From a virus: 64,000 nt of DNA. Both the position numbers and the translations under genes were made by a program. Below, one piece after another: positions 3,635-59,200 of this stretch. Where the stretch lies: positions 1 to 64,000 of the IMG/VR virus record IMGVR_UViG_3300034107_001363, one strand, 5' to 3'. Below the pieces are notes generated by a model that made no database searches, was not told where the DNA came from, and saw only the letters and a program-made list of their open reading frames with translations. The first letter of the stretch is position 1, and each line of letters starts with the position of its first letter.

Positions 3635-4120
3635 TCAAAGTTTGCGTGCAGCCCGCTCGTCGTCACCGACCTTGGCGTGGCATTCGTGGCACAAAATTTG
3701 GTAACCTTCAGATTCGATGTAAAGCCGTCGGATTACTTCACTCCAGTCGTATCCGAGGAAATGGTTGCCTTCTGCCCAGTCGTGCTGAAGAGGAATGACT
3801 GGTTCGGTATGGTCTGCATGAACTCCGTTTTGGGGAAATTGGCGCTGACAATGCTGGCACTGGTGTAGTTTGCACTGGCGGCCGGTTGCCGGGTTGGTGC
3901 CATGTCCTACAAAGGCTTTTTTGAGGGCTTGGTGGCGCTGTGGCCACTGGGCACGACGAAGGGCGGACATCACGAAGCTACGCATCCGTGCAAGGGTCCA
4001 TTCGCCTCCATTGAACGGACGCTCAATCCCGCTCCGGGGAGTAGGTCGCTTTTTTGCGAAATGCTTGGGCTTTTTTGTGGTAGAGGCCGGAGCCTTTTTT
4101 TTGCGTCGGAAGGGCATCAA
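3635..4120 (-). CDS. HNH endonuclease
   Basis: SALRRA..WP; CQHC...HADHTEPV...YQILCHECH zinc-HNH pattern. Confidence 0.8.
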   Translation of the reverse strand: MMPFRRKKKAPASTTKKPKHFAKKRPTPRSGIERPFNGGEWTLARMRSFVMSALRRAQWPQRHQALKKAFVGHGTNPATGRQCKLHQCQHCQRQFPQNGVHADHTEPVIPLQHDWAEGNHFLGYDWSEVIRRLYIESEGYQILCHECHAKVGDDERAARKL

Positions 4121-4364
4121 AATTGAGCTGGTTTAGCTTGTCGGCAATGGTCTGCAAATTGGCCGCTGTAAGCGGGGTAGTGTCCAAAATTGCCATTGGG
4201 TAAAACGACCATTGTCCTGATTGTTCATCAAGCCGAAACTCTCCTAGTTTCAATCCTACCATCCACACGACATCGGTGAAGCCAATGGCTTGCACCGTTG
4301 TTTCTGCAAGCTTGCCGTCAATCCATTCAACGGCTCGGTAAGTGAATATAGTGATAGGGTTCAT
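4023..4364 (-). CDS. Hypothetical protein
   Basis: 113-aa ORF directly after the ncRNA region; 3' end overlaps the HNH gene. Confidence 0.55.
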   Translation of the reverse strand: MNPITIFTYRAVEWIDGKLAETTVQAIGFTDVVWMVGLKLGEFRLDEQSGQWSFYPMAILDTTPLTAANLQTIADKLNQLNFDALPTQKKGSGLYHKKAQAFRKKATYSPERD

Positions 4365-4384
4365 GGTGTTGGTTTTGAAAAAGG

Positions 4385-4581
4385 TGAGAAAGGCCGGTCT
4401 TACCCCGGCTCTAGGCTGATCGGGCCCAAGATCTACAGCATTTGTTTGAGTTTCACGCCGCCGCGTTACTATTTGCGTCGGGAATTAACGGATGCGTTAT
4501 CCATTAACCTCACCCGATAACTGACTCAAACCTCATACTGCGACTCATCTGCGTGTCTAAGAATTTCCACGCCGCTTTCTC
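4385..4581 (-). ncRNA. tRNA-like RNA with a ~140 nt insert in place of the anticodon arm
   Basis: 7-bp acceptor GAGAAAG/CTTTCTC followed by ACC; D-like stem GCGTG/CACGC; T-like arm GCCGG-7 nt-CCGGC; internal helices. Confidence 0.6.
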
Positions 4582-4654
4582 ATTTGGAAAATGGTGGCCT
4601 GTCCGGATCGGCATTGTGAACTCAACTGGCTCTTGAATGGCGTACGGCCAGTAA

Positions 4655-4823
4655 TCAGAGGAGCTTAGTGGTGGGTTTTCAGCCGCAGACCATTGGGTCC
4701 GGTTACCGTATCCGGTGCCAGCTTGACGCTACTGGCGGTTCCACGGCTTGCGCCGTGCCTAAGGCAGCGTCTTTCCGCTGTGTCACTGCACCTGTTTTGT
4801 CAGGAGGTAGTCAGCTTCTCCTT
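4655..4823 (-). ncRNA. Multi-hairpin structured RNA segment
   Basis: Consecutive hairpins CAGCG/CGCTG, CACGGC-GCAA-GCCGTG, GCCAG/CTGGC, CCGG/CCGG and GACC/GGTC; no credible ORF. Confidence 0.5.
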
Positions 4824-4923
4824 ATGTGGCGGGAGGATTCGAACCTCCGGACGTTGATACGTTGCAGCACGCATCCCCGTTCTATCTGCATCAACCTTAG
4901 ACCTGTCTCGGTCACAACCACAT
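4824..4923 (-). ncRNA. tRNA-derived RNA with canonical D and T arms but no anticodon loop
   Basis: TG-ACCGAGACAGGTCTAAGGT D arm; GGAGG-TTCGAAT-CCTCC T arm; bulged acceptor; TTGATGC/GTATCAA stem enclosing 27 nt. Confidence 0.65.
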
Positions 4924-5021
4924 TCCAACCCCCGATCAGGTCGCTCACCGTAAGCAGTGCCCTGCGAAGGTGCCCTCACTGCGGAGGCTGGAATGAGGTG
5001 ACCGCTTACGGCGGTCAGTCG

Positions 5022-5086
5022 TGGGCGGGGATGGACGCCACTCCATCTTTCTCGGCTTAACCGGACAGTTCCGGCTTCTCCCGCTC
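5022..5086 (-). ncRNA. Possible minimal tRNA-like element
   Basis: GAGCGGG/CCCGCCC acceptor-like stem; CCGGA/TCCGG and GATGG/CCATC arms. Confidence 0.35.
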
Positions 5087-5092
5087 AAAATG

Positions 5093-5410
5093 TCATTCCG
5101 GATTGTTGGCTGTCCGCCAAACCCGAATCACGGAACCGTCAAGCCGAGCGATAAACTTGGCTTGTGGCTCGTAGTTTTTGGCGTATTGCCGACTGCTCAG
5201 GATCACTGACGACAATTGACGCTGGGCATGGGAGGAATCATGCAAGGCAGGGAAGGAGAACGAATCCCCGGGTTCCAATTCATGGAATGGAAACACCGAC
5301 CGTTTGGTTGGAATTTCTTCTGGAATTGGAATGTTTCGTTCCCGAACGATTTGCTCCCGCTTGATCCTTGAGATAATTGGGCGGGATGGCTTTCTTGATT
5401 TGGTGCTCAT
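5093..5410 (-). CDS. Small phage DNA-binding-like protein (FPF..LEPGDSF...RVWR family)
   Basis: Motif pattern common in phage proteins; ATG at 5410 follows the SSB stop. Confidence 0.65.
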   Translation of the reverse strand: MSTKSRKPSRPIISRIKREQIVRERNIPIPEEIPTKRSVFPFHELEPGDSFSFPALHDSSHAQRQLSSVILSSRQYAKNYEPQAKFIARLDGSVIRVWRTANNPE

Positions 5411-5417
5411 CCGGGCC

Positions 5418-5966
5418 TTAGAAAGGGGCAGGTTGTTCGCCAAATTCGCTAGACTCCGGTGTTTCGCCGGTTTCGGAGTAGTGGGCATACACCTTGGCAA
5501 GCTGGAGGACCAAGGCTTGGGCGGAGAACACGTCACCACCGACACCCATCGAGGTTACCAGCGCCGTGGCGTGGGCAAGGCTGTTCTGGCGGATGATGGT
5601 AGAGTCCTTGGGAGTAACACCGGCAGGGCCGTGTTGGGCTGCAGGAGCTGCGTGAGCGGCTTGCGAGGGATCTCCCCCTGCAACTGCCAGCCCGTTCTCA
5701 CCGGACAACTGTGGAGTGCCCTTGTAGTCGCCGCGCTTGAGCGGTCCTTGCAGAGTGATCGTCTGGCCATCTTGGATGGGTAGGGAAGCGGCGGCGCCCC
5801 ACAAGGAGACGGCAATTTGGCCACTGCCGTCGGACAGCGTGATGTTGCGCATCATCTTGCCGGTAGAAGTAGCTTTGGCTGGCCACTTGGCTTGCGCCGT
5901 GACATTTTCGAGGGACATCACTTGTCCCCCGACAGGAGTGCTGATTGCTTGGAATACCGTAGGCAT
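5418..5966 (-). CDS. Single-stranded DNA-binding protein, RPA-like OB fold
   Basis: LSDGSGQIAVSLWG...GQTITL...YKGTPQLS; IIRQNSL helix; acidic tail ending in PF; adjacent to an exonuclease. Confidence 0.75.
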   Translation of the reverse strand: MPTVFQAISTPVGGQVMSLENVTAQAKWPAKATSTGKMMRNITLSDGSGQIAVSLWGAAASLPIQDGQTITLQGPLKRGDYKGTPQLSGENGLAVAGGDPSQAAHAAPAAQHGPAGVTPKDSTIIRQNSLAHATALVTSMGVGGDVFSAQALVLQLAKVYAHYSETGETPESSEFGEQPAPF

Positions 5967-6047: not shown

Positions 6048-6251
6048 TTACTGGATCACGCCGGGGATGTGGAGGGTCAGCTCGTCGCCGAAGACTGAGC
6101 AGCGGTAGCGCGGCCGCACTAGGTCGAATAGACGCTGAGCGTTTTGGACGGTGCCGCACTGGATGAACAAGTCGTTCTTAAGCCGGGACAGCTGATCGGG
6201 ATCGACCTTGAGGTCTTCCAGCAGATTCTTGATGTCGGCTGGCAGGTTCAT
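6048..6251 (-). CDS. Hypothetical protein
   Basis: 67 aa; coupled to the exonuclease gene. Confidence 0.6.
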   Translation of the reverse strand: MNLPADIKNLLEDLKVDPDQLSRLKNDLFIQCGTVQNAQRLFDLVRPRYRCSVFGDELTLHIPGVIQ

Positions 6252-7093
6252 TCCTCGAAGTTGGGTTCAGCTGCAGACTCGCGCTTGAATTGAGGACAGT
6301 GCATGTGGAAGCCGCAGAAGTATTTGCAGAAGGTTTTCTCCCCTTTGCGCGTCTGGATGATTTGCCCGGGCTTTTTTTCGGCTTCAGCTTCGGCTAGCGT
6401 GGCGCACAGCTTGGAAGCGCGCTTTGCTCCCGGCTTCATCAGGGCAAAACTGTCAGGTTTAGCCCATTGCTCGTCTGGTGTGCAGGGACGGGGGTTCCCA
6501 GCCACTGCAGCAAGGTGTTCAGGAATTCTTGTCAGGAACTCTTTCTCGGCACCTACAGAGTCGTAGTCGGCAAGAAATACTCGAAACGGGCTTTTGGGGT
6601 AGGCTGGGTTGACGGTGCTTTGTAGGTAGGACCAATCGCGCTGGAGGTAAACCACAGCCACTTGGTTGACTGGCACGCCGTTGATTGAGGCTAGGAAGCC
6701 ATTCATCTGGGCTTGGGCCCGGTGGTCAGGTTTAGCTTCTTCTTGGGTTCCTCCCGTCACCTTGTAGTCGAAGATGGTGCCGTTTTCGTAGAAGTCGATT
6801 TGACCGGAGACTACGGTGTCGAGGATGGTGTGGAAAAAACGCTCTTCCGCCCGCTCGCCGTTGGTCAGGTCAACGTGATGCTCTAGCACGGAATGCACTG
6901 CAGTGCCCAGCAAGGCGGCGAACGACGAGTAGCCGCTTTCCACTTTGGTTGAGAAGGTGCCAAGGTAGGTCCGCTGAGGAGGGGACAACAAGCCTGTTAC
7001 CGAAAACTGGGAGTGACCCTTGTTGTAATTGTCACGGTTGAGCGCGCGCAAGAACGGGGTAGGGAAACTCACGAGGTCTTTTCTTAATTCCAT
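6248..7093 (-). CDS. Cas4-like PD-(D/E)XK exonuclease
   Basis: SVTGLL, GTAVHSVLE, EERF, GQID, DYK, Q..N motifs and C-terminal CxxxC..C. Confidence 0.85.
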   Translation of the reverse strand: MELRKDLVSFPTPFLRALNRDNYNKGHSQFSVTGLLSPPQRTYLGTFSTKVESGYSSFAALLGTAVHSVLEHHVDLTNGERAEERFFHTILDTVVSGQIDFYENGTIFDYKVTGGTQEEAKPDHRAQAQMNGFLASINGVPVNQVAVVYLQRDWSYLQSTVNPAYPKSPFRVFLADYDSVGAEKEFLTRIPEHLAAVAGNPRPCTPDEQWAKPDSFALMKPGAKRASKLCATLAEAEAEKKPGQIIQTRKGEKTFCKYFCGFHMHCPQFKRESAAEPNFEE

Positions 7094-7112
7094 AATCTTC
7101 AAAATAATCACC

Positions 7113-8060: not shown

Positions 8061-8422
8061 TACCAAGGGGCTGTGTCGGGGTTGAAAGCGGTGTTTTCGT
8101 CGAGACCGTCATGCGGATCAGGTCCAATTTCTTCGATGTTGCGAATGAGGCGTTGCTGGAAAGTTTCTGGTGCTGGTTTTTTGGCCCGTGGAGTGCCTCG
8201 TGGCTGCCTTGTGTTTGATTTCCTTCCTTTGCCCTTGGCCGATGCTTTGGATAGCTCCAGACGGGGTTCTAGGGCTAATGCCAGCTCGGCTGCACGATTG
8301 AACCCATCGATGTTGTCGCGGCACCATTGGACGTAGCCCGGATCTTTGAACAGCACCTTGGATAAGTGCATTCCTCGGTATTTGCCAAAGTTGAAGCAGC
8401 CGTCACCTTTGAAGGGTTTCAT
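8060..8422 (-). CDS. ExoX C-terminal-like (FGKYRG...DPGYVQW) domain protein
   Basis: FNFGKYRG..L......DPGYVQW motif. Confidence 0.65.
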   Translation of the reverse strand: MKPFKGDGCFNFGKYRGMHLSKVLFKDPGYVQWCRDNIDGFNRAAELALALEPRLELSKASAKGKGRKSNTRQPRGTPRAKKPAPETFQQRLIRNIEEIGPDPHDGLDENTAFNPDTAPW

Positions 8423-10068: not shown

Positions 10069-10072
10069 AGCT

Positions 10073-10540
10073 TTATGCTTCGATAGCTGGAGTGTAGCCC
10101 ATTACTTTTTCAAGCAGCTGATCAAGGGCTGGAGCCACCTCGGAGTTGTCGAGAAGAGGGTTTGGTGCTGCGAGCCCTTGCTTGATTTTTTGCTTGGTCG
10201 CTTCTTCATCAAAGCGCGACGGATGGAGCCGGCTGATCTGTTTTTTGAGCTTCATAATCAAAGGAGTTGAAAGATCGATGACGCATTTCAGTGGTTGGTC
10301 TTCGTTGAAGTAGCGCACGCTCGTGTCGATTTCGAAGTCGATGGGTTTAATTCCTTTTAGCAGCTTGATGGCTTCTAAACGGAGCTGTTCTTGAACCTCC
10401 AGCGACTGCTTTTCGACGCGTTCTCCTTCTTTGGCGTGGGCAATCTTGGCCCGCTTAAGCAACGCTTCGGCAATTTGGGTCTTGGTTGGCTTTGGCTGGG
10501 CTTTTGAGACTTTGCCCGGGATGATGATGTTGGTGTTCAT
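10073..10540 (-). CDS. Hypothetical protein
   Basis: 155 aa; coupled. Confidence 0.7.
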   Translation of the reverse strand: MNTNIIIPGKVSKAQPKPTKTQIAEALLKRAKIAHAKEGERVEKQSLEVQEQLRLEAIKLLKGIKPIDFEIDTSVRYFNEDQPLKCVIDLSTPLIMKLKKQISRLHPSRFDEEATKQKIKQGLAAPNPLLDNSEVAPALDQLLEKVMGYTPAIEA

Positions 10541-47280: not shown

Positions 47281-50200
47281 ATGGATTTTTCCAACCTGAC
47301 CCGTCTCGCTCCGCCTAAGTCGCTTTTCACCAAGGAACCAGAAGTTCCGGAAGTGCCAGAAGAAGAGCAAGAGGAACTCGACCTGAAGCGGCCGGAGACC
47401 TACTTGCTTTCATCGAAATGGGTCAATGCCAAGTCCGTTGAGGAGCGGGTGGCGTTGGTCGACAGGATTGCTTTGAAGCAACTGGAAGCACTGGAAGCTG
47501 ATAAGGAGGGCACCATCGAGATGGAGGTCTACCGCAAGGAAGCCGACGGCAGCCGGTCGGGCAAGCCGGTGCGCGACCAAGTAAAGACCTATGGTCCGGA
47601 TGGGTTATTGAGCCGGCAGTCGCTTGAGTTCCTTGAGCAAAGCCGCCAAACCCTTCTTCAGGCTGCTCAGGATCCGGACGGCGGGGTTCGCCTCAACGGT
47701 TTTTCCGGCAAGCTGGAGGCATCCAACTGGATTGACCAGGCGGTGCGTGGCAATCGGGCTCCGGTTGAAGACGATCCGTCTCTCAAGCCTTACGACGAAT
47801 TCATCAAGGACCAGTCGGTGTTGGCAACCGAAGAAACCAAGCCCGATTTCTCGTGGGAGAAATACACCAAGTGGAGCAACGACCGCCAGACCGACCCCTC
47901 CAAGCAGGTTGACCCAAAAGACGAAAAGCAAAAGAGGAAGTTTGATGAGCATGTCGGATGGGCGACCTACGACCCGACCAGCATGGGGCCCGACAAGGTG
48001 ATTGACACCTTCAACGGTCGGGTGACGGTCAATCCGACCAACTTGTTTGAGTATGACCAAGCTGAGCGGGAGCTTACCGAGCGCACTGATTTGACTCCTG
48101 CCGCCAAGAAGCTGGCTTGGATGGACTACGAAGCCAAAGTCAACCAGCACATCATGGACGGGGTCAACCTGTTTGCTTCGGCGGATGCTGGAGTGGAGTT
48201 TTTGTTTGGTGATTTTGTTTCTTCTGCGGAAGGCCTCGCAATGGAGGAAAAGATCAAAGGGTGGAGTGATGAGGACAAACAGGCGTTTCGGCAGGAGCAA
48301 GCGGCTAAATTCAGCGGACGGATGGGACTCGGAGCAAAGCCTTTGATCAACGAGCTGGAAGCTCATCTTGAGGCAGGAGGGTCCGGCATCGACTTTTTGC
48401 GCGCCAACAAAGAGCGCATGAGTCGGGATTCGTATGGTCCAGTTAGCGAGTTGGCCGCCAAGACCCGTGACGCGTTTCTGGCAACCGGTGGCGGAATCAA
48501 CTGGGCGATCGGTCATTACGTTAACCAAGCGCCCGGCGTTGGGACCATGTTTCGCATGGCGACGGGAACTGATGGCACCGAGTTTAGCCGTCCAGCCCAA
48601 GAGTGGGGAATCTTGGCCGAGGAAACAGCACAGGCCTATCGCAATCCTGAATATAATTTGCTGATCACTAAGGTCAACCGCCGTGACCTCACCTCATTGG
48701 GCGGACAGCTTGCTTCGTTTATCGGGTTGGGAAGCTTGGGGATAGCAGCAACTAAGGGAGCAACTTTGAGTGCGGCGAAAGCGGCTTTGGCCCAAGGCAC
48801 CGCGATGGCAACCGCGAGCACGGCGACACGGCTGGCGACGGCTACTGGCGGTCGTCTTGGCCCGAAGACAGCAGCTTTTTTGGTTGAGACGGCAACAGAC
48901 GCCACTGCTTATCTTGGTGCCATCCAAGCGTCAGGGATGTCGTTTGGCGGAACTCATGACGCGATTCTCAAAAAGACCGGCGACGCGAAGGAAGCCTACC
49001 GGGTGGCTTCGATTGACGCCGTGGCTGACGGACTTGGAGCACTCATTGCCACCTCGGTGATGAACCGGGTCGCACCCGGAGCGGAACGGTTGTTTGGTCT
49101 CCAACCTGGCAAGGCCGGTGGTTCGTTGGTTCAGCGCTTTCGCGCAACCCGGGCGAATACCGTTGGCGCCAGTGGTTTGGCAGACATCAAGAATAGCTTG
49201 AGCAAGCTTCATCCAAAACTTGGCAAGCAGTTTGCCAAGGACATGAAGGCTGCGATTCGCCACGAAGCTGCCCAAAAGGGTCTTCGTGGTTTTGGGGTGT
49301 TCAAGTCAATGGGAGCGGAAGGAATCGAGGAGTTCTCCGACGAAGCGATTTCCGACGTGATCAAAATGATTATCGATGACTCCAAAAGCTGGTCAGCCGG
49401 CGACTGGGGCAACATCCACGACAACTTCCGCGACTATTTGAAGGCCGGTGTGTTGGGGATGATCGGCGGGGCAGTGGGCGACGCCAAGGCAATGGCCTCA
49501 TCGGGCTGGAAAGCAACCGTTGGCAACGACGATAAACGCAAGGCTGAAATCAAGCGGGCCGTCACCGACCGGTGGGCATTTATCAAGGCCGATGTGGCAG
49601 GGGCAATGGCTGACAAGGACACCGTCAATCCGATTTACGACGGCACGGATCCGGATGCGTTGAAGCTGGCTGCGGTGCTGGCGTCAGACGATCCGAAGTT
49701 CGATTTGAAATACAAGTCGCGGATGCTGGTGGCGGCAGCCCGCAAGGGGGCGGCGAGGCCGTTCAGCGAAGCGGTCGAGAATGCTCAAGAAGATGGTCAG
49801 AAGCCGTCCAAGCGCACTTCGGCTGTCACTACTCCGGCGACGGGCTCAGCGAGTCCTGTGGTGCCTTCTGGGGGCTCTAGTATTGAAGAAGCGAGGCAAG
49901 CGGCGGTGCTTGGTGTTTCCAAAGCTCCCGCAGGCACCCGGGCCAGGCAGAAAATCGAGGTTGAGGAGTTGCCTGCGGTGACGTTGCCCAACGGCAGCAC
50001 CTTGACCCCGTTGAAAATTGGCGGGGTGGGAGCGGCTGGAGCGCGGCTTTTGGTAGCGGGGCCGGACGGTAGTGTCACGGTCAGCTACCTCGATGCGACC
50101 GAAGCTGCGGCGCTGGTAGGCACGACCGACAAGAAGCTGCGCAAGGAGTTCGAGCAGACCGCCAAGGACCAGCAGCAGGAACTGGCCGGAGGCAAATTCA

Positions 50201-53200
50201 GCGACGCATGGACCGAGGCTGAGAAAAAGACGGATAGCAAAGCGGCGCAGAAGCAGGCTGAAGTGAAGCCTGCTGACCGGCTCAAGGCCGCAGCGGCCGT
50301 GAAGCTCAAGCGCAAGCCGCCCGCCCTAGGCACTTCAAAAGAGCGCTTTGAAAAAGCCCAGCCGCCGAAAGAGGTAATCAAGAACAAGCCCGTCAATTCG
50401 ATGGGCGAGGCCACTCACAATTACAGGACCAAGAAAGGCATCCTTGAGTCGGTGACCACCATTCTCGGAAAGTCCCGCCGGTTCTTTTTTGACAAACAGA
50501 AAGCACTTGTTGCGGCAGTCAAGGGCACGGGGATGACCGTGCAGGAGAAGGCTGCCGAATGGGACGCCGATACCGAGGCTGGCACCTTGCTGCACGAGCA
50601 AGTGTCCGCGGTGTTGTCCGGCGGTAATCCGTCCAGCGATCCGTTGGTGACGAAAATTGTTGAACTGGTTCGGGAGAATGCAGCCGACGTTCCATTGTCG
50701 GAAGTGATCATCAGCAGCAAAACCTATGCGGGGTCCATCGACATCCTTGTGCCCCTGGCTGACGGAAGCTGGCTGTTGATGGACATCAAAACCCTCAAGG
50801 ACAACCCTCACGAGACCGGATCCAAGCCGTCTCTCCGTCATCGCGACAAGGGTTCCAAAATCGACGCATGGGCCATTCAGCTGCTGGCTTACAAGACGGC
50901 TCTTGAGGCTCGCGGCTTGGTGGTGAGCGAGATGAAAATCATCCCGGTTGACCGTGTCGGGCGGGAGGTTTTTGTCGACAGCGAGGGCAATGCGCTACTG
51001 GATGTGGCCCCTACTCCAGAGCAGGAGGAGTGGTTCAACGAAATTTTCCAGCAAGATGACACCGACCAAGGAGCCGACGATGTGGCAGTTGATGAGCAAG
51101 ATTCAGGTCCCAAGCCAAAAGGTGCTGGAGTGGATGCAGCTGCCAAAGTCGGAAGCGGTCAACAAGATGCAGGCAATCGGCCAGCTGGAGAAGAATCAGG
51201 CAGAGAGACTGCACCAGATGCTGCAGCCGAAGTAGCAAGGAGCAAAACTCCCTCCAAGGTGTTGCTACCAAAGGCAACCGAAAATGCTCCGCCACGTCCA
51301 CCACAAGAAGGTGGCCGGGAAGGGCGAGACGCACGTCAGGCGTGGGACGACCAGTATGCGTTCACCCACAACCCCGACGGCAGTCCGATTCAACCGACAC
51401 TCACAGAAGAAACGGTTCAAGCTGCTCAAAAAGCGGGCAAGCTCGCCACGGGAGATTCGCGGATTGATGCGTTAGGCGTGTTCGATCAAGCCGGGGTGGG
51501 AACAGCCGTTGAGCAGCTTCTCGATGCTGGGTGGAACTGGAACGGGCAGCGCATGGAGAACCCCGACGACCTGGCTGAAACCCCAGCCGTTGGGTTGCAG
51601 CGAATCCGTGCCGCCCGCGACAATGCTCAACAGGCACCTACACCGGCGGCACCTGCACCCGCAACCCCTTCAGTCTCCCCCCAAGCCCCCCTCGAACCCG
51701 CTGCCGAAGTAACCTACGAAGCGGTGAACGGCAACCGGCTTCCAGCCAAGGTTGTCGGGGTCAATCCCGATGGAACCTACCAAATAGATGTTCCAGGATT
51801 CGGCGAGTTGACCCGTGTCACTCGCAACCGGTTGGAACCAACCCCGACAACCAATGAAGAACAAAACCAAGTCGAAGTTCCGGTTGTGGAAGCTCCTGCT
51901 TCATCTGGCCTAACTGTTCCGAAGCTGGTGACCCGGTTACGCCTCTTGCACGGCATTGTGTTTGAGCCGAAAGCCAGAGACGCGGGTGCCCGTAACCTCA
52001 ACAACAAAGACCGCTATCCTGGCAATAACGACGTCTGGATGCAGGCAAACAACGGCGCGTTGTTCTTCCATCCGGACTTTCTCGAGAAGGTGTTGGCTAA
52101 CGACGAAATTTCCGACAAGGTGGGCTTCGTGGAAGCGACTGTTGAGGCGGTCCGCACTGGCACCGACATCCCGTTGATGCCCGAGCAAACCGAAGAGGTT
52201 ACGGTGGAAGAACAGACCGAGGAAGAGCAGGAAGCTGCCGCGGTGAAGGAGACCGAGGAAGTCAAAGCAGAGCTGGAGCAAGAGGAGACCAAGCTGGAAC
52301 AACTTCCGGACGATTCGACTGTCGATGAGGTTCGCGAGGTGGCACCGCAGCTGGTGGATACCGCGACGTTGGCTGCCCTCAATGCTTCCGACCGCGAGTC
52401 GTTCCTGACTTGGCTCAAGGGATTCTCCAAAGGCCTCTCTCGTTTCGGCGACAAGATTTGGCGTGCTGCCAAGGGGATGGCAGTTGCACTGGCCGGCATC
52501 TCGGTAGCTCCTCAAGCGACCAACCATGAAATTGCTTCGGTGGCTCAGGTTTCCCCTGAACTGGTTGAGGTGGTTAGCGGTAGTTTGCCTAACTGGGCAA
52601 CCCCTTCCGACGTCTCCATTGAGGCGGAGTTTTCCGATGGCACCCTGCCGCTGCCTCTCAACGAAACTGACAATGTGGCGGCGCTGGATGTCAGCACCTT
52701 GCCTCAACCGGCTTTGGTCAGCATCGATGTGCCTCAGCCTCGTCAGGTCATCAAAGATGTGCAGGCGCCGAAGGTTGGCAGCGTGGAAGCGACCCAGTCG
52801 CTTATCGATGAAATGAACCTTGGCAACGTAGGCACGACTCTTCCCGGCGGTTTGGCCAAGTGGTGGCTGAAGCAAGGCAAGAATCCGGCGGTCAATGCGG
52901 CAGCTGCCTTGCTGGGAGAACACGAGAAAGGTTCATCCCGAATCAAGTCGATGCTGGTGAGCATGGGGGTTTCTGAAAATCCCTCGTCCTTCCCGTGGTG
53001 CAGCGCTTTTCTTTCGTGGAGCCTGAACCAAGCTGGACTCAAGACCAAGACCATGTCGTCACGGGCTTTTCTTGGTCTCGGCCAGAAAACCACTGCTCCT
53101 GCCTATGGTGACGTGGTGGTTCTGTGGAATGATAATCCAGCTACCGGCGGCAAGGATGGCTGGGGTGGACACACTGGGTTTTACCTCGGCGAGACCGATA

Positions 53201-56200
53201 CTCATGTGATTGTGCTCAGTGGCAATTCGGGCGACTCGGTAGATGTTTCGGCTTTTGTCAAAACCCGTGTTCTTGGCTATCGAGCTTTTGGCAACACACC
53301 GGGATTGCTCGCTTCTCGCGGACGGCCGAAGCGCCGGGCTCGTTCCCGTCGGTCCTTGCCGCCGTTGAAGGGATTGGCGGGGGGGCCTGCTCAGCCGGCT
53401 CCAGCGGTTCGCAAGATCAGGAACTTGTCTGTCACCGAAGCGGAACTGACGGAGGAATCGGCGGAAGGCAAGTGGCAGCAAAAGGGGAACGACTACCTTT
53501 TCACCCCGGCCAAGGGCAAGATGGTGCGGCTTGCTCCGGGCGAAGTAGTGCAAATCGCCGGTAGCGACGACTTGTTGTTTCTCTACTCGGTCGGCGACGG
53601 GGTGTGGCAGTTCAAGCGGATCAATCCGGAAAAGCTCTCCGAGATGTGGAGCGACGGCAATACTCGGGTCAAGGTTGGCCATTTGCAGCAGGAATGGGCG
53701 AGGACTCGGTTGGACCAGACTGCGGCCGATGTCGAAGGCTTGCTCGACGACTTGCTTGGCTCGGACGCCGCACCCAAAGCCAAGCTGATCACCGGGCTGC
53801 GCAAGCTGCTGCGGAAGGTAATGGCGGAAGTTGCTCCTAATGCTGATCCAGTTGCTCCTGATGGTGATCCGTTTGTCGAGGTGAAACTGGAAGGCGACGA
53901 TTTCATCCAGGCTCGCATTGAAACGGTGCTGGTTGAAAGTTCCCAAGAAACCAAAGAGAAACTAGGAAAGGAGTTGGCTAGGCTTGAAGCGAACCCGGAG
54001 TTGCAGCAACTAAAGGATGAAATCAAAAGGATTCTCGGGAGTTTGCCTAAGCATGATGACCCAGGCCGCATGGCGGCTGAAGCTCCGCTAAAACCACTTC
54101 AGGATCGCTTGAAAGCCCTTGAGCTTGAAATCAATAAAGTCAAAACCGCCATCAGTCGGACGATTAAGCGTATTGAAACTGAAGCTGATTATTACGGTGA
54201 AGCTGCAGTTAAGACCATGGAGGTGGACTTGGTCAATTTGGTGGCCAAGCTGCGCCGCGAGCTGGGAGGGGTAATGCTGGCCAACGACGAGACTCGCGCC
54301 CATGCTGCGCTCGAGGTGGCGCGCCTGCTGGCCAAGTGGGTCGACGAAGAGCAAATCCACTTCCTTACTTTTGACGAAAAGCGTTTCCCGCGACTTGAGG
54401 TGGAGGGCATGGTCGGAGCTATTTTCAAAGACGTGAAGCATCCGTTCCGGCCAATGCTGCTGGAGACGCTGGACGAGCGTTTTCCAGACCGTTCGCTGGA
54501 TGAGGCCGATGACACTTTCCTCGACGACGACAACGGGTTTTACACCCTTGGCGCCGAGTTGCTGCGGAAGATGCTTCAAAAACAACTCACTGGCACGACT
54601 TCGGAGGATGCGGTTGCTCAAGCAAACTACTTGGCTGCTGCAATGGCTGCTGACTTGCGCGCTGGCAAGATGACCAGCAAGGGCAAGCCGTCGCTGTTAC
54701 AGACCATTGGGGCTTTGCTGCGGCGCTACAGTGAGCGGATGCGTTCGATCCTTGGGATGCGTTGGGCCGTCGGCCAGTTGCCGGAAGGTCAATATCGTCT
54801 GTTCCACCGCCTGATGCAGGACTACCGCAAGGCCAACTTGCGCGGCGACGTCGATCTGGCGCGCGAGAAGCTGGTGATTGCCACTGCCACCCGCTTGCAG
54901 CTGCACAGTTCGGACATGGAGGAGCGGCTCAACAAGATCGGCCGCAAGCACACCGAGGGCCTTGAGCAGATCAAGCGTTTGCCCAAGGTGCTGCTGGACA
55001 TCGGTCAGGAGGATTTCCTTGTCCTTAATGCCGAGGGTGAGCTGACGTTGCACGAAGAGGTTGAGAAGTTCATCAATCGCAATCCTGACAAGTTCAGCCA
55101 CTCGCTCATTTACGACGCCTTAGAAGCGATGCAGTCGGAAGATGGTTACCAAGCCGCTTGGATGGACGCCGCGCTTGCTAGGAATGCCTTGGAGGCCCGG
55201 GAATTGGCCTTCGACTTTAACCCCGCCGAGTTGTTTGGTGATTCGTCGACTTTTGACCCTGAATCTGCCGTCGGCAAGATCATCGCTGGTTCGCCGCAAG
55301 CTGCTTACAATCCGCTGGTGCGGATGCGCCGCGACGAGCTGGCCGCGATGGACAAGCAAATCGAAGACCGTGCGGCTGGCTTGGTGGTGTCGGAACTCGA
55401 ACGAGTTGAGAATCTTGATCCTTCCGATAAGAAAGATCAGCGGGGTTTGATCAAGTTGGCGGGAGCGCTTGGCGTGATGCCGGCTTCACTCCCTTCGTCC
55501 AATGAAGATTTCGCCAGGCTAAAGGAACAAATTGCTGTTCACATGGAGGTGATGTTCGAGCAGGGCGGTCCTCGTCCGTGGGAAGGCAATTACGACCCAG
55601 CTTCTGGCCGCTTGGATGGCGCGGTGTATGGGGGGCCGTTACCGTCCGGTTCGTGGTCGATGGGGGACGAAACAGCTGAGGCTCAGCCGTCTATTTTCAG
55701 GCAAGAGCAGGAAGCTTTGGCCGCGTTGCGCGAGCAGCGGTCCCGCAAAGCCGACGACCTACTTATCCTGCAAGGGGTGCTTCAACGCGACGCCAACGGC
55801 CAGATTGTTTCCGGACCGACCACCGAGGAAGTGCCTGAAACCGACCGCACTGGGGCTTTGTGGCAACTTAACAGGGAACAACGCCGGAACGCCGAAGTGC
55901 TGCGGATCCGTGACCGGATGCGTCAAGCCGAGAAGGACGTCGACATGGTGGAAGCCGAGCGGCGCTACGCTCAACTGGTCGACTACCTCGAAGCGCTGGA
56001 TGAATACAATCGACGGGTCACCCACATGAAGCGGCGGGCAATCGGCGACTTTTACGACTGGGAGAAATCTGACTATGGCCTGTTTTGGCAGGACACTCGG
56101 GTCGACAGCGAGAAAGCCGAGGATCCCCGTATGTGGGATAAGAGCGACCCGGCGCCGGTAGCTATGACCGCTAGCGACGTGTTTGGTTACCAAGCGCTGC

Positions 56201-59200
56201 CGCCCGAAGCGACAACCGGGGAAGGGATTAAGCCGGGCTTCGGCCATCCCCGCAATCCACCGAAAGACGCCGACCCCAAGGAAGCCGAACTGTTCCGCGC
56301 TTACGACCGCGCGACCAAGAGCAACGCGGCGTTCCGAGGCCGGGAATGGCGCAAGGACTTCACGCTGGCCCAGTGGATGGAGGAGCTTCCACTCAATTTC
56401 GACCAGCAACTTTACACCGCAACTGGCGGCTTTCGCTTCCCATCGATCGAAAAGGACGAGTTTGGCCGCTTGAGTTACGAGACCTCCGAGCAGGCGTTTC
56501 CTAGTTTTGACGGCTTTGACGAGCTGTATGCGATTCATCGAATGGGAGAGGAGAACGAGGAACTGAGCCAGCAGCAGCGCAACCTGCGGGATGCCCCTTT
56601 GTGGATCGATCAGTTTATCGGTTACGTCGACAAGGCTGAACGCTGGCTGGCCCACGTCCAACTTCGGGCTGGCTTGGATGAGTTTGACACTGGTCCTGAC
56701 ATTGTGCGCGAGATGAACGGTAAGCCGACGCTGGCGGCGCAAAGCCAGTTGCTGCTCGATCCGGTGCTAGAGGCGTTTAGCGACAGGCTTGCCGCACTCA
56801 AGAAGGATTTCCTATCCAAGATGGGGCCTCACTTGGACTACTCCGCGAAGGAGAACTTCCGCGACAGTTTTGCTCGTGAACGGGGCAAGCTGGCTCCCCT
56901 GACTGACGAAACTCAGATGGCTCAGGCGTTCTTGAAGATGATCAAGGCCAAGGAGTCCTTCAGCCCGTTTAAAGTGGCGATGGAAGCTACCCAGCAGGCC
57001 AACACTGCGGTCAAATTGGTTCGACGGGCTCTCCATGAGTTTAGCAACTTGCGTTGGCAGGAGAACTTGGAGAAGGAAATGATGAAGACGGTGCGGGACT
57101 TGTCCTACACCCCTGAGCATTCCGAGTTTTTGCGGTTGCGCGATACTACCCTCGACCCGGCGACCATCCGATTCCTTGAGTTCAATCTCAAATACATCTC
57201 GCAGTTCCCCGATTCTTACCACGTCGGGGCGGGTTACGCCTACGAGTTCCTCGAGCAGCACCGCAAGGTCAACAAGGGTGGCGGCGGGGAGCCATTCATG
57301 AAGGTCTACTTGGACAGCCAAAAGCGCGCGCTGGCCAAGGGTCTTCCAGTTGAAATTAACGAAGAGGCCCAGGTACTGACGATTGACGACACGGGGCCGG
57401 ATGGACAGGCCTATAACGTGTTTGCTTCAGGCGAACAGGGGGCTGACTATAACGCTTTCACCAACGAACGGATTGGCAATGGCTGGCAGACCCAACAGGA
57501 GAAGGCGACCAAGGATGCCAACATCGCATTTCAGGCCCGCAAGATCCGGCTGTCGACTTGGCTGACTCTTATCGGTTTCCGGATTAGCGAGAGCACGGGC
57601 AACGTCGAGGACGCTAAGAGCTTTCGCAGTGACGTCGTGCGCAAGATGCTGACCGGTGAGGGTGACTCGCTGGAGTTGGTTGGTCGCGGAATTCGAGGAA
57701 TGTTTACCGCCGCTTTGTTCAACGACGAGTTGCATTCCACTTTGGTTGAGCAGTTTTTGGAAGCTAATCCGCACTGGAAGGATTTGCCGTCGCTGGATGA
57801 AGAACTGAATCAAGAAACGACATCCCGACGTGTTGCTGGAGGATTTGATGCCGAGGCTTTTGCGGTGGATTTGCTTGAGTTCAAGGAGGGTTTCGAGCGA
57901 GAAGTGCTGCAATCGGCGCTGGTCAACGACAAGGACCAGATGGCGACGGCCTTGGCTACCGTGCTGCGGGTCGGCACAGCAGGCATCAAGGACATCGTGA
58001 TTGATCCTGAGTTTAGCGGTCTGAGTGCTGCCTACCGGCTGAAGCAGGACTACCAAGCGTTCGGCAAGGCCCATCAGGAGAAATACGGCGTGGACATCCT
58101 CAACGCCGACGAGCAGGTGTTTTCCAACGTCACTGCCGAGGAAGCGACTTTGGTCGCTCAAGTGATCCAGCAGCAGATGCTCAACGGCGACTTGCGGCCA
58201 TACGACGGCCGGCTGGTCACTGGCGACTTATGGCTGGCAACCAACCCTGTGTTGGCTTTGCTAGCGGGGTCTCAACCCGGCTCGCGCTGGGTGCCCGATC
58301 TGGTCAAGGAAGGTGAGGAAGAGACCGGTAAATGGGTGCCGGTGCAGACGTTGATCATTAGCCCTGACGAGAAGGCGATGGCGGTTGCTGGCGCGGATGT
58401 CGGGTTCCGGGTCTTTCCCGGCAGCGACGGGATGCCTGACGTCATCTGGGCCCCGCTCAAGCCAACTGGCCAGCAGGACGCCCAGTTTGCCATTCAGCAG
58501 TTGCTGCAGGTTTACGGGGAGGTGCCGGCGATTAAGAGCAACTTGCGCGAACTGGCACGGATTTTCCGCGAGACGCTGGCCCCCGGCTTCCTTGCCAACG
58601 ATGTGATGGCTGCGTTGGACGATAAGATGGTCCGGCTTCGTAGCGATGTCAGTAACCGCAATTTGTTGGGCACGACCACTACCGGGAATTCCAGCACTTG
58701 GCAATCAGTGGCGCTAGATTTGGGAGTGACCGAGTTTTTGGGAGCGACTTGGGAAAGCGAGTTGGCCAAAATGGGGGTCGATTTCAAGTCTCCGGCTTTT
58801 GAGGAAATCCGCCAGCTGATCAAGTCAAGCAAGCACGGGCCGAGCCGCCATTGGAAAATGCTCCACAACGCTCTTAAAGCGCAGAAGTTGACTGCTACCA
58901 TGGGCGAGCTTAGCGAAAGCCTGCGCGCCCGCTTTGCCGACCGGATTTCTGAGTTGTCGAAGGAAGAATCCGAGCTGTTCGAGCAACTGCTGGCCGACCA
59001 CTACTATTCCGCTTCCCGGTCGCTGGCTGAGTCGTCGATCACCGAGGCCGAGATCAAGAGCGAGGGCTGGGGTGCCGACGTGCTGCTCATTTCGCTGATG
59101 CTTAGCGATCCTGCCTACAAGCGGGCTTTTGACGTGTCCTATGTCGGCGACGAGTCGGAAAATCCAGCGGGTGACGACAGTCTTTCGCCGGTGATGCGTG

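What the first reader, a model, noticed from the sequence alone, without database searches (positions are those of the whole stretch)
4385..5086. ~700-nt cluster of non-canonical tRNA-like and structured RNAs in the early region
Seen: a stretch with no credible ORF, in an otherwise overlapped gene run, that folds almost end to end on the minus strand. It contains a mini cloverleaf (5086-5022), a 14-bp helix with possible pseudoknot, a tRNA-derived unit (4923-4824), a multi-hairpin unit with a GCAA tetraloop, a TGGCC/GGCCA-CCA ended unit (~4650-4592) and a large tRNA-like unit (4581-4385). No unit has a normal anticodon loop. Known: phages encode tRNA-associated large ncRNAs (GOLLD, ROOL) and tRNA-mimicking Y-like RNAs. 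Inference: a polycistronic precursor processed by RNase P/Z into tRNA mimics, perhaps decoys for anticodon nucleases or other tRNA-sensing defences.
Basis: partly seen in the sequence, partly recalled or inferred. Interest (0 to 1): 0.8.

Follow-up and report, generated by a model that had tools for sequence, protein, structure and literature searches.

The report
Phage array of tRNA-like RNAs
A 730-base gene-free stretch of an uncultured lake phage holds several conserved, folded RNA modules, some shaped like tRNA, that match no catalogued RNA family and whose job is still unknown.

Summary
Window 4365-5092 has no conserved ORF and folds far better on the minus strand (z -4.6) than the plus strand (z -1.3). 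It is a mosaic of separable RNA modules, none matching Rfam 15.

1. A long hairpin with an invariant internal loop ("D2", 5001-4914). The motif pattern hit at least 119 viral contigs. It shows strong covariation and often sits next to tRNAs.
2. A tRNA-like cloverleaf (4923-4823). ARAGORN calls it only when introns are allowed. Its acceptor and T stems covary in a relative.
3. A four-hairpin module (4792-4690), found in 23 records.
4. A roughly 100-nt unit closed by a covarying 6-7 bp helix with an invariant U.G pair and an ACCA tail (4691-4592).
5. A roughly 200-nt cloverleaf-like unit ending in ACC (4581-4383).

Ten-base pyrimidine-then-A spacers separate the last units. A close relative carries five further ACC(A)-tailed units.

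Modules 1, 3 and 4 recur in other phages in different combinations, which favours an array of separate RNAs over one giant RNA.

Processing by tRNA enzymes is inferred, not shown. The decoy function is speculation. There is no expression evidence. GOLLD, ROOL, tmRNA, Y RNA, UG27 arrays, an attP site and antisense coding were all tested and not met.

The parts
5019..5086 (-). Unit 1: a 68-nt mini-cloverleaf. A 5-bp closing helix holds two hairpins and leaves a CCAC tail.
   Evidence: The MFE fold closes the ends, z -2.63. No homologue was found; L002 differs here.
4914..5001 (-). D2 motif. It has a long P1 helix, a CA bulge, a short invariant helix, a one-by-five internal loop (G against AGCGA) and a variable P2 hairpin.
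   Evidence: R2 model hit of 68.5 bits. Covariation. The motif pattern hit at least 119 viral contigs.
4823..4923 (-). tRNA-like cloverleaf. It has a 7-bp acceptor, a 4-bp D arm and a 5-bp T arm with loop UUCGAAU. In place of an anticodon arm it has a 7-bp hairpin with a 6-nt loop, preceded by a 19-nt single strand.
   Evidence: ARAGORN with introns allowed. MFE cloverleaf, z -2.06. Both-sided changes in the acceptor (1 pair) and T stem (2 pairs) in L028. Default ARAGORN and Rfam tRNA find nothing.
4793..4822 (-). Linker with two small hairpins.
   Evidence: Identical in L002 and absent in other relatives. Hairpins appear in the fold.
4690..4792 (-). R1 module. H1 is GACA plus a 5-bp stem with loop GAAAGA. 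H2 is a variable hairpin, here with a GCAA loop. H3 and H4 are twin 5-bp hairpins with conserved 10-nt and 9-nt loops.
   Evidence: R1 model hit of 108.7 bits. 12 of 18 pairs changed on both sides in 9 sequences. Hits.
4592..4691 (-). ACCA unit. A 6-bp closing helix carries an invariant U.G at pair 3, with CGG/CCG stacked below it and a 3' ACCA tail.
   Evidence: Alignment A11: 74 of 74 cells paired, U.G in 8 of 8. R3 model hit of 100.7 bits.
4582..4591 (-). 10-nt spacer UUUUCCAAAU between the ACCA unit and unit B.
   Evidence: The extended 14-base motif occurs only here and at 4373-4386 in this region; its one other window match, at 39714, has 2 mismatches. Five to six copies in L002.
4383..4581 (-). 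Unit B: a roughly 200-nt cloverleaf-like RNA. It has a 7-bp closing helix, a D-position hairpin, a long branched central arm, a variable-position hairpin, a T-position hairpin (5 bp, 7-nt loop) and an ACC tail.
   Evidence: RNAalifold with L002: 58 pairs, 0 broken, 4 changed on both sides, 7 on one side.
4373..4382 (-). Second spacer (UUUUUCAAAA), 8 nt before the ATG of ORF 4023-4364.

Best explanation
The ORF-free stretch 4365-5092 on the minus strand is a co-oriented array of at least five structured non-coding RNA modules. It lies inside the leftward gene run of a 73-kb uncultured lake phage.

The modules are evolutionarily separable building blocks, and phages combine them differently:
- D2, a widespread phage hairpin motif that tends to sit next to tRNAs.
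- A tRNA-like cloverleaf without a decoding anticodon arm, fused to D2.
- The R1 multi-hairpin module.
- Two units closed by helices that end in ACC(A).

Inferred working model, not shown:
1. The array is transcribed with the flanking genes.
2. It is cut into stable small RNAs by the host's tRNA-maturation machinery. RNase P would cut at the 5' side of each acceptor-type helix. The pyrimidine/A spacer would be trimmed at the 3' end back to ACC(A), with the CCA enzyme completing the tail.
3. The products present tRNA top-half shapes to host or phage factors that bind tRNA.

Which factor, and to what end, is unknown.
For: Real, strand-specific structure:
- Fold z -4.6 on the minus strand against -1.3 on the plus strand.
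- Many G.U pairs, which would not pair on the other strand.

Conservation above the neighbouring gene:
- 88% DNA identity with L002, including about 145 identical columns, while the adjacent protein is 75% identical.

Covariation:
- D2 on an unfitted MAFFT alignment of 7 sequences: 98.4% paired, 8 of 19 pairs changed on both sides, 0 of 500 shuffles as high, slid controls 34-44%.
- D2 in 40 sequences: one pair next to the invariant core is kept in 40 of 40 through 6 pair types.
- D2 in 49 sequences: 91.6% paired against 64.3% shuffled.
- R1: 92.9% paired, 12 of 18 pairs changed on both sides.
- ACCA unit: 74 of 74 cells paired.
- Unit B: 0 of 58 pairs broken.

Modularity:
- R2 finds D2 in 8 of 26 R1-family sources.
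- R1 finds nothing in 77 D2 loci.
- The ACCA unit occurs twice in L002, and in L080 with D2 but without an R1 match.

tRNA theme:
- Genuine tRNAs start 15-17 nt after the D2 core in L040 and L042 and flank D2 in L087 and L111.
- T-arm-like hairpins lie within 160 nt of D2 downstream in 6 of 51 and upstream in 8 of 51 distinct motifs. The background is 0.007 per 160 nt.

Unit grammar:
- 8 of 8 units cut at my chosen boundaries fold with paired ends and a 3-5-nt tail.
- Spacers are 10-11 nt.
Against: - No transcription or end-mapping data. No RNA run on record holds the stretch, and the runs laid are contigs that are probably DNA.
- Processing is inferred from shape alone.
- I chose the unit boundaries for from the helices, so '8 of 8' is partly circular. 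Two units have weak z-scores (-0.5, -0.9).
- ACC(A) tails are not universal. R1 in L005, L018 and L022 ends in a hairpin plus a U-run without ACC.
- No spacer separates D2, the tRNA-like unit, R1 and the ACCA unit. The acceptor 5' strand of the tRNA-like unit is shared with the D2 helix, and the whole-region MFE forms D2 rather than the acceptor.
- Alignments A3 and A10 were fitted to the models.
- Unit 1 has no homologue.
- No RNA-handling protein partner was seen among the 57 ORFs scanned.
Confidence: 0.55

Rival explanations
1. One large ornate RNA of about 500 nt (5001-4592: D2, tRNA-like domain, R1 and the ACCA domain) acts as a single folded molecule, as GOLLD and ROOL do. Unit B would be a second RNA. 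The tRNA-like part would be an optional insert, not a released product.
For: - The four parts abut without spacers.
- They keep the same order in the 8 sources that hold both D2 and R1. Seven of these 8, all but L020, also match the ACCA-unit model.
- The slot after D2 is variable: tRNA-like in the window, L002 and L028; a 23S-like hairpin in L013; other inserts in L026 and L033; and replaced by 37 letters in one public contig.
- GOLLD has a conserved 3' half and a variable 5' half, and sometimes carries tRNAs in its linker (passages of bioRxiv 2024.12.08.627333).
Against: - Each part also occurs alone. D2 was confirmed by the R2 model in dozens of the viral contigs that matched the motif pattern, and none of the 77 D2 loci searched has R1.
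- R1 occurs alone, followed by a U-run, in L005, L018 and L022.
- The ACCA unit occurs as a separate spaced unit in L002.
- No long-range helix closing the whole was seen.
Confidence: 0.25
2. The elements act in cis on the operon. They could be terminators, attenuators, processive-antitermination RNAs, RNA-stability elements or phage promoter hairpins, rather than released trans-acting RNAs.
For: - In other phages D2 and R1 are often followed directly by a T-run.
- The GACA-plus-hairpin element (loop GAAAGA) recurs just upstream of different modules. 26 of 32 such hairpins in 1.4 Mb carry the GACA prefix.
- The array lies inside a co-directional gene run.
Against: - D2 has no conserved neighbouring gene. 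Only 4 of 40 upstream and 4 of 41 downstream proteins have a homologue in the set.
- About 20 invariant loop bases and cloverleaf-type folds are more than a terminator needs.
- The simple scan finds no terminator or sigma-70 promoter on the minus strand here, though that scan does not cover other promoter types.
Confidence: 0.1
3. The stretch is decayed remains of a phage tRNA cluster or an attP core, with no present function.
For: - T-arm and acceptor remnants are present.
- Relatives carry a real tRNA-Arg nearby.
- An HNH endonuclease gene lies next door.
Against: - The region is more conserved than the flanking protein.
- Compensatory changes occur in many helices.
- No tyrosine-type integrase (PF00589) at E <= 1 in the genome.
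- The strict module pattern found no copy in 185,579 representative genomes.
Confidence: 0.03
4. The stretch encodes a protein on the plus strand, ORF 4668-5060 (130 aa).
For: The frame is open in the window and in L002, at 64% identity with in-frame indels.
Against: The same frame carries stop codons inside the conserved core in 10 of 14 homologues. The substitutions keep RNA pairing rather than codons.
Confidence: 0.02

Closest known systems
GOLLD and ROOL (large ornate phage/prophage RNAs)
   Same: Both are phage-encoded, highly structured and of unknown function. Both are associated with tRNA genes. GOLLD has a variable half and can carry tRNAs in a linker (passages read in bioRxiv 2024.12.08.627333).
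   Different: No match to either Rfam model. Here the parts recur independently in other phages, so this looks like an array of modules rather than one conserved giant fold.
Phage T4 RNAC/RNAD (species 1 and 2 stable RNAs of the tRNA region)
   Same: Both are small stable phage RNAs of unknown function encoded with tRNAs. That they are matured with the tRNAs is my recollection. The passages of PMC9697503 that I read say only that RNAC and RNAD are of unknown function and expressed late.
   Different: T4 has bona fide tRNAs alongside, whereas this genome has none.
Bacterial/phage Y RNAs (YrlA) that mimic tRNA
   Same: Both have a tRNA-like module with a T arm but no decoding function. PMC4201824 was seen in a search listing and abstract only.
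   Different: By my recollection, YrlA is permuted, with the tRNA-like part closed by the Ro-binding stem, and lies beside rsr. Here the topology is that of an ordinary tRNA. No Ro60-type protein was seen among the 57 ORFs scanned, and there is no Rfam hit.
UG27 reverse-transcriptase ncRNA arrays of phages
   Same: Both are phage-encoded arrays of structured units of about 150 nt that gain and lose units (passages of bioRxiv 10.64898/2026.09.22.753630).
   Different: No reverse transcriptase in the genome (PF00078, E <= 1). The unit motif of that paper is absent from the stretch.
tRNA punctuation (mitochondrial transcripts, MALAT1-mascRNA) and 3' tRNA-like structures of RNA viruses
   Same: tRNA-shaped elements with an ACCA-type end mark processing sites or recruit tRNA enzymes. 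This rests on established knowledge and on abstracts listed.
   Different: Those are eukaryotic or RNA-virus systems. No DNA-phage array of anticodon-less units is described in the papers that my searches returned.
Catalogue of 8,495 unnamed candidate structured RNAs from IMG/VR (PMC10690425)
   Same: It uses the same data source and reports tRNA-like candidates and terminator-like candidates of 29-151 nt (passages read).
   Different: I cannot tell whether D2 or R1 is already listed there under a number.

Membership tests
tRNA (Rfam RF00005) | 7-bp acceptor stem, and a 5-bp T stem with a 7-nt T loop next to the acceptor 3' strand | tested here: met
   Unit 4923-4823: ARAGORN with introns allowed and the MFE cloverleaf. 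Both-sided changes appear in L028.
tRNA (Rfam RF00005) | 5-bp anticodon stem with a 7-nt loop | tested here: not met
   ARAGORN has to remove a 20-nt 'intron' at a non-standard place. L028 supports a 7-bp hairpin with a 6-nt loop instead.
tRNA (Rfam RF00005) | Recognition by the standard detectors | tested here: not met
   Default ARAGORN finds 0 in the window. RF00005 finds 0 in the whole genome at E <= 10, while 14 of 14 control genomes ring.
GOLLD (RF02032) | Match to the covariance model of the conserved 3' half | tested here: not met
   0 matches at E <= 10. cmscan of all families finds none.
ROOL (RF03087) | Match to the covariance model | tested here: not met
   0 matches (where the control rang nowhere). 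The cmscan includes the family and lists nothing.
tmRNA | tRNA-like domain plus a tag reading frame, as detected by ARAGORN or Rfam | tested here: not met
   ARAGORN tmRNA mode at 80% thresholds finds nothing. Rfam finds nothing.
Y RNA / YrlA | A Ro60 (rsr) gene nearby, and a match to the Rfam models | tested here: not met
   No Ro-type family among the 57 ORFs scanned with Pfam. No Rfam hit.
UG27 ncRNA array | Adjacent reverse transcriptase and the short conserved unit motif | tested here: not met
   PF00078 absent at E <= 1. The motif has 2 window matches, both elsewhere, at the chance level.
Phage attP at a tRNA gene | An integrase, and identity to a host tRNA 3' half | tested here: not met
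   PF00589 absent. The unit covaries between phages. Identity to a host tRNA was not tested because the host is unknown.
RNase P substrate (tRNA top-half mimic) | A coaxial acceptor-plus-T stack of about 12 bp with a 3' RCCA tail, cleaved by RNase P | not testable with these tools
   The shape fits for unit B (7+5 bp, tail ACC) and for the tRNA-like unit (7+5 bp, with no CCA encoded). The ACCA unit has 6 bp plus a further 3 bp beyond a bulge, with an ACCA tail. Cleavage needs an enzyme assay.
DNAVirus_X candidates of PMC10690425 | Match to one of the published candidate models | not testable with these tools

The most novel reading that the evidence does not exclude
These phages carry a kit of early-made RNA mimics of the host translation apparatus. 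The kit includes tRNA top halves with ACCA ends and a fixed U.G mark. One relative also carries a copy of the 23S rRNA hairpin of the GTPase-associated centre. The mimics hang on a widespread, so far uncatalogued phage RNA motif (D2). D2 either cuts or protects the neighbouring tRNA-shaped RNA, or toggles with it through the strand they share. The mimics would soak up or mislead host factors that read tRNA ends or the ribosome, such as tRNA-directed defence toxins or stringent-response enzymes.
Probability: 0.15. Interest if true: 0.85.

Novelty: new variant of a known kind. Interest (0 to 1): 0.7.

Why it matters
Phage-encoded structured RNAs next to tRNAs (GOLLD, ROOL, T4 RNAC/RNAD) have been known for years without a function.

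This locus adds at least three covariation-supported families that match nothing in Rfam 15. One of them (D2) was seen in well over a hundred viral contigs from unrelated phages.

It also shows such RNAs being built from interchangeable modules that imitate tRNA ends. In one relative a module imitates a ribosomal RNA hairpin.

The units are small, at 70-200 nt. Their predicted ends are precise. They can be tested directly with RNase P, the CCA-adding enzyme and aminoacyl-tRNA synthetases. That makes the question 'what do tRNA-associated phage RNAs do?' more tractable than the 600-800-nt RNAs allow.

Tried and rejected
- **Rfam.** Whole window at gathering scores: 0. Positions 4200-5300 at E <= 10: six chance-level hits to unrelated families. 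Six relatives at E <= 1: 0. Twenty D2 loci at gathering: only 6 tRNAs. A minimal D2 (L045:100-200) at E <= 10: 0.
- **Cultured phages.** blastn of the stretch found no match. tblastn of the nearby exonuclease found only relatives below 30% identity. D2-plus-tRNA regions of L087 and L040 matched only through the tRNA part.
- **Representative prokaryote genomes.** A strict module pattern gave 4 stretches, and R1 confirmed none of them.
- **Upstream ORF 5093-5545.** No relative in viral contigs.
- **Expression.** No RNA holder is listed. The laid runs were contigs flagged 'probably DNA' or of guessed kind, and no ends can be read from them.
- **Simple promoter/terminator scan.** Nothing on the minus strand. 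It is uninformative for hosts with other promoter types.
- **Antisense ORF.** Rejected.
- **attP.** No integrase.
- **UG27 array.** No reverse transcriptase and no unit motif.
- **Window RNA against E. coli genomes.** No match.
- **Recalled resemblances.** I considered likenesses of the D2 loop to the sarcin-ricin loop (sequence read), to the TPP and ZTP riboswitch cores and to k-turns. None fits the covariation-supported pairing and none gave an Rfam hit, so I claim none of them.
- **Wrong accession.** I recalled GOLLD as RF01998. One search showed that this is another family, and one search used the right one.
- **Literature.** Searches returned no description of these motifs. Passages were read from four papers. 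Their supplements could not be seen and may bear on novelty, above all those of PMC10690425.
- **First submission.** One search was returned for a missing confidence field. This report is the same with that field added.
Full report
**Setting.** The window is bases 1-64000 of a 73,295-base IMG/VR virus record that CheckV rates complete. Genes up to about 21 kb run on the minus strand. Few have Pfam or PHROG matches. An ORF of more than 5,573 codons runs off the right end. The finding lies between the stop of ORF 5093-5545(-) and the ATG of ORF 4023-4364(-). An HNH endonuclease gene (3635-4120) lies further downstream and a PD-(D/E)XK exonuclease gene (6248-7111) upstream.

- The 731-nt stretch folds at -270.7 kcal/mol on the minus strand, against -244.4 +/- 5.7 for shuffles (z -4.62). 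The plus strand gives z -1.34.
- Default ARAGORN finds no tRNA or tmRNA in the window.
- Rfam 15 finds nothing at gathering scores and only chance-level hits at E <= 10.
- The Rfam tRNA model finds nothing in the whole genome at E <= 10.

**A close relative.** Contig L002 shares the downstream protein at 75% identity. It shares the RNA stretch at 88% over 608 columns, including about 145 consecutive identical columns that cover the tRNA-like unit. The differences are indels inside hairpin tips and base changes that keep pairing. L002 also carries about 500 extra bases made of five more units.

**Module R1 (4792-4690).**
- blastn against phages that share the exonuclease showed a conserved core in 6 of 11 loci.
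- I built a covariance model from 6 sequences. It hits the window at 108.7 bits, and hits L005 and L006 two and three times.
- Pattern scans added 5 viral and 10 metagenome loci. The model matched in all 15 of them: 7 matches in the 5 viral loci and 13 in the 10 metagenome loci. That makes 23 records in all.
- Five whole related virus records gave only one weak match.
- On 9 sequences, 92.9% of cells pair against 72.3% in shuffles. 12 of 18 pairs change on both sides. That alignment was fitted to the model.
- The twin hairpins H3 and H4 keep 10-nt and 9-nt loops while their stems vary freely.
- In L005, L018 and L022 the module stands alone and is followed by a U-run.

- Seven relatives aligned by MAFFT alone give 98.4% paired cells, with 8 of 19 pairs changed on both sides. 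None of 500 shuffles reached these values, and slid controls gave 34-44%.
- Of 98 distinct flanked sequences, 70 have a flanking helix of 8 bp or more, and 62 of those 70 share a CA-N-U prefix. The rest look protein-coding.
- RNAalifold on 40 sequences shows that the variable N pairs with the base after the 3' invariant strand in 40 of 40 sequences, through six pair types.
- Model R2 finds 49 matches in 69 sources. It leaves out all of the coding look-alikes except one partial 25-bit match in L084. On those matches 91.6% of cells pair against 64.3% in shuffles, with 232 cells changed on both sides (fitted alignment).
- Many G.U pairs mark the sense strand as the folded one.
- D2 has no conserved neighbouring gene: 4 of 40 upstream and 4 of 41 downstream proteins have a homologue in the set.
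- It is tied to tRNAs. Genuine tRNAs begin 15-17 nt after its core in L040 and L042 and directly after it in L092. It sits between two tRNA-Leu genes in L087 and L111.
- T-arm-like hairpins lie within 160 nt downstream in 6 of 51 and upstream in 8 of 51 distinct motifs. The background is 0.007 per 160 nt.
- Neither 20 D2 loci nor a minimal D2 match any Rfam family.

**The tRNA-like unit (4923-4823).**
- ARAGORN with introns allowed, at default thresholds, calls it 'tRNA-Cys(gca) with a 20-nt intron'.
- The MFE fold is a cloverleaf with a 7-bp acceptor, a 4-bp D arm and a 5-bp T arm with loop UUCGAAU. Its central arm is 3 bp plus 7 bp with a 6-nt loop.
- The only diverged homologue found is L028, at 78.6% identity. 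It changes both sides of one acceptor pair and of two T-stem pairs. It also improves two pairs of the 7-bp hairpin. The pairing that ARAGORN's 'intron' model needs is broken there.
- It is therefore tRNA-shaped but has no decoding arm.
- The 5' acceptor strand is also the outer 3' strand of the D2 helix, which pairs with the D2 5' strand in D2-only relatives. The two helices therefore exclude each other in part, and the whole-region MFE chooses D2.
- One public contig replaces 4786-4920 with 37 other letters.

**The ACCA unit (4691-4592).**
- Eight sequences keep a 6-7-bp closing helix in 74 of 74 cells, with 3 pairs changed on both sides. The third pair is U.G in 8 of 8. Three invariant pairs follow, and the tail is ACCA, or ACCC or ACCU in one sequence each.
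- The count of pairs changed on both sides is not significant on its own (105 of 500 shuffles). The share of paired cells and the covariation score are (0 of 500).
- Model R3 finds 10 matches in 66 sources. These include a second, separate copy in L002, and a copy in L080 that follows D2 without R1.

**Unit B (4581-4383).** With L002 it gives 58 predicted pairs. None is broken, 4 change on both sides and 7 on one side. The layout is a cloverleaf: a 7-bp closing helix, a D-position hairpin, a long branched arm, a variable-position hairpin and a T-position hairpin directly stacked on the closing helix. The tail is ACC.

**Unit grammar.**
- In the window a 10-nt spacer (4591-4582) separates the ACCA unit from unit B. 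A similar one follows unit B.
- The extended 14-base spacer motif occurs nowhere else in the window at up to one mismatch. Its third match, at 39714, has two.
- L002 has five further units of 69-116 nt. Each is closed by a 5-12-bp helix, ends in ACCA, AACC, CACC or ACC, and is followed by a 10-11-nt spacer of the same kind.
- All 8 units that I cut out fold with paired ends and a 3-5-nt tail, with z from -0.5 to -2.9. I chose the boundaries from the helices, so this is weak support.
- A further recurring piece is the H1 hairpin of R1: GACA, a 5-bp covarying stem and loop GAAAGA. It also stands directly before D2 in L026, L033 and L080, and before the ACCA unit in L080. 26 of 32 such hairpins in 1.4 Mb carry the GACA prefix.

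**One RNA or many?**
- D2 and R1 co-occur in only 8 of 26 R1-family sources.
- R1 is absent from 77 D2 loci.
- The ACCA unit travels with or without R1.

The parts are therefore independent evolutionary modules. Whether they are also separate molecules in the cell is not shown, so I keep the single-large-RNA reading as the main rival.

**What it is not.**
- Not GOLLD, ROOL, tmRNA or a Y RNA.
- Not a UG27 reverse-transcriptase array, as there is no RT and no unit motif.
- Not an attP site, as there is no integrase and the unit covaries.
- Not a plus-strand gene. That ORF is open in the window and L002, but the same frame has stops inside the conserved core in 10 of 14 homologues.

**Mechanism.** What is shown: conserved, strand-specific folds; tRNA-type end architecture; regular spacers; and association of D2 with tRNAs. 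What is inferred from established knowledge of bacterial tRNA maturation:
- RNase P recognises the stacked acceptor and T helices and the 3' RCCA.
- Exonucleases trim 3' trailers back to an encoded CCA.
- The CCA enzyme completes missing ends.

On that basis such a transcript would be cut into stable units. A role as decoys or sponges for tRNA-binding factors is speculation. No partner protein is evident among the 57 ORFs scanned.

**Prior work.** My searches returned no description of these motifs. A 2023 catalogue of 8,495 unnamed candidate RNAs from IMG/VR may contain them. I read passages only, and its supplements are closed.

Noticed in passing
L013:2737-2769 (also L010 and L012): At the slot where the window has its tRNA-like unit, these relatives carry a 33-base segment that is 88% identical to E. 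coli 23S rRNA positions 1054-1086. By my recollection this is the L11-binding hairpin of the GTPase-associated centre. It is found in only 3 of 151 loci, at E about 6e-6 against one rRNA operon.
   Followed up: partly
window 4914-4923 with 4995-5001 and 4824-4830: The strand AUGUGGU can pair either with the 5' strand of the D2 helix or with the 3' acceptor strand of the tRNA-like unit. Both partners follow its one change in L028. This could be a structural switch.
   Followed up: partly
window 4767-4784; L026:445-465; L033:26-46; L080:1887-1910 and 1647-1670: The element GACA plus a 5-bp covarying stem with loop GAAAGA stands directly upstream of different modules (R1, D2, ACCA unit). 26 of 32 such hairpins in 1.4 Mb have the GACA prefix. 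It could be a start or processing signal.
   Followed up: partly
window 47281-64000 (+): An open frame of more than 5,573 codons runs off the window. It was not analysed. It is reminiscent, from recollection, of the giant virion proteins of N4-like phages.
   Followed up: no
L013:3247-3275; L018:4686-4700 and 8280-8296; L005:10593-10615; L022:1725-1745: In relatives a small hairpin of the form UUUAG-N6-CUAAA lies 10-15 nt before gene starts that follow the RNA modules. It was not seen in the window.
   Followed up: no
window 4365-4372 and gene starts of relatives: Gene starts are preceded by A/C-rich leaders without a Shine-Dalgarno sequence. This hints at a host that does not rely on SD pairing. 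The host was not identified.
   Followed up: no
L005:~10070-10180; L018:~3650-4116; L022:897-1367: A conserved OB-fold-like gene with a shared C-terminal motif precedes the R1 module in three relatives, but not in the window.
   Followed up: no
window 4786-4920, run X15: A 270-base contig of a wastewater run joins 4785 to 4921 with 37 unrelated letters between. It is a variant that lacks the tRNA-like unit and the linker hairpins.
   Followed up: partly
L002:3445-3519; L008:4419-4495; L009:3821-3895: Relatives carry a standard tRNA-Arg(tct). The window and its whole genome carry no standard tRNA.
   Followed up: partly
window 4668-5060 (+): A 130-codon antisense frame is kept open in L002 through in-frame indels, but is broken in 10 of 14 more distant homologues. 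It is probably a by-product of the conserved G+C-rich RNA.
   Followed up: yes
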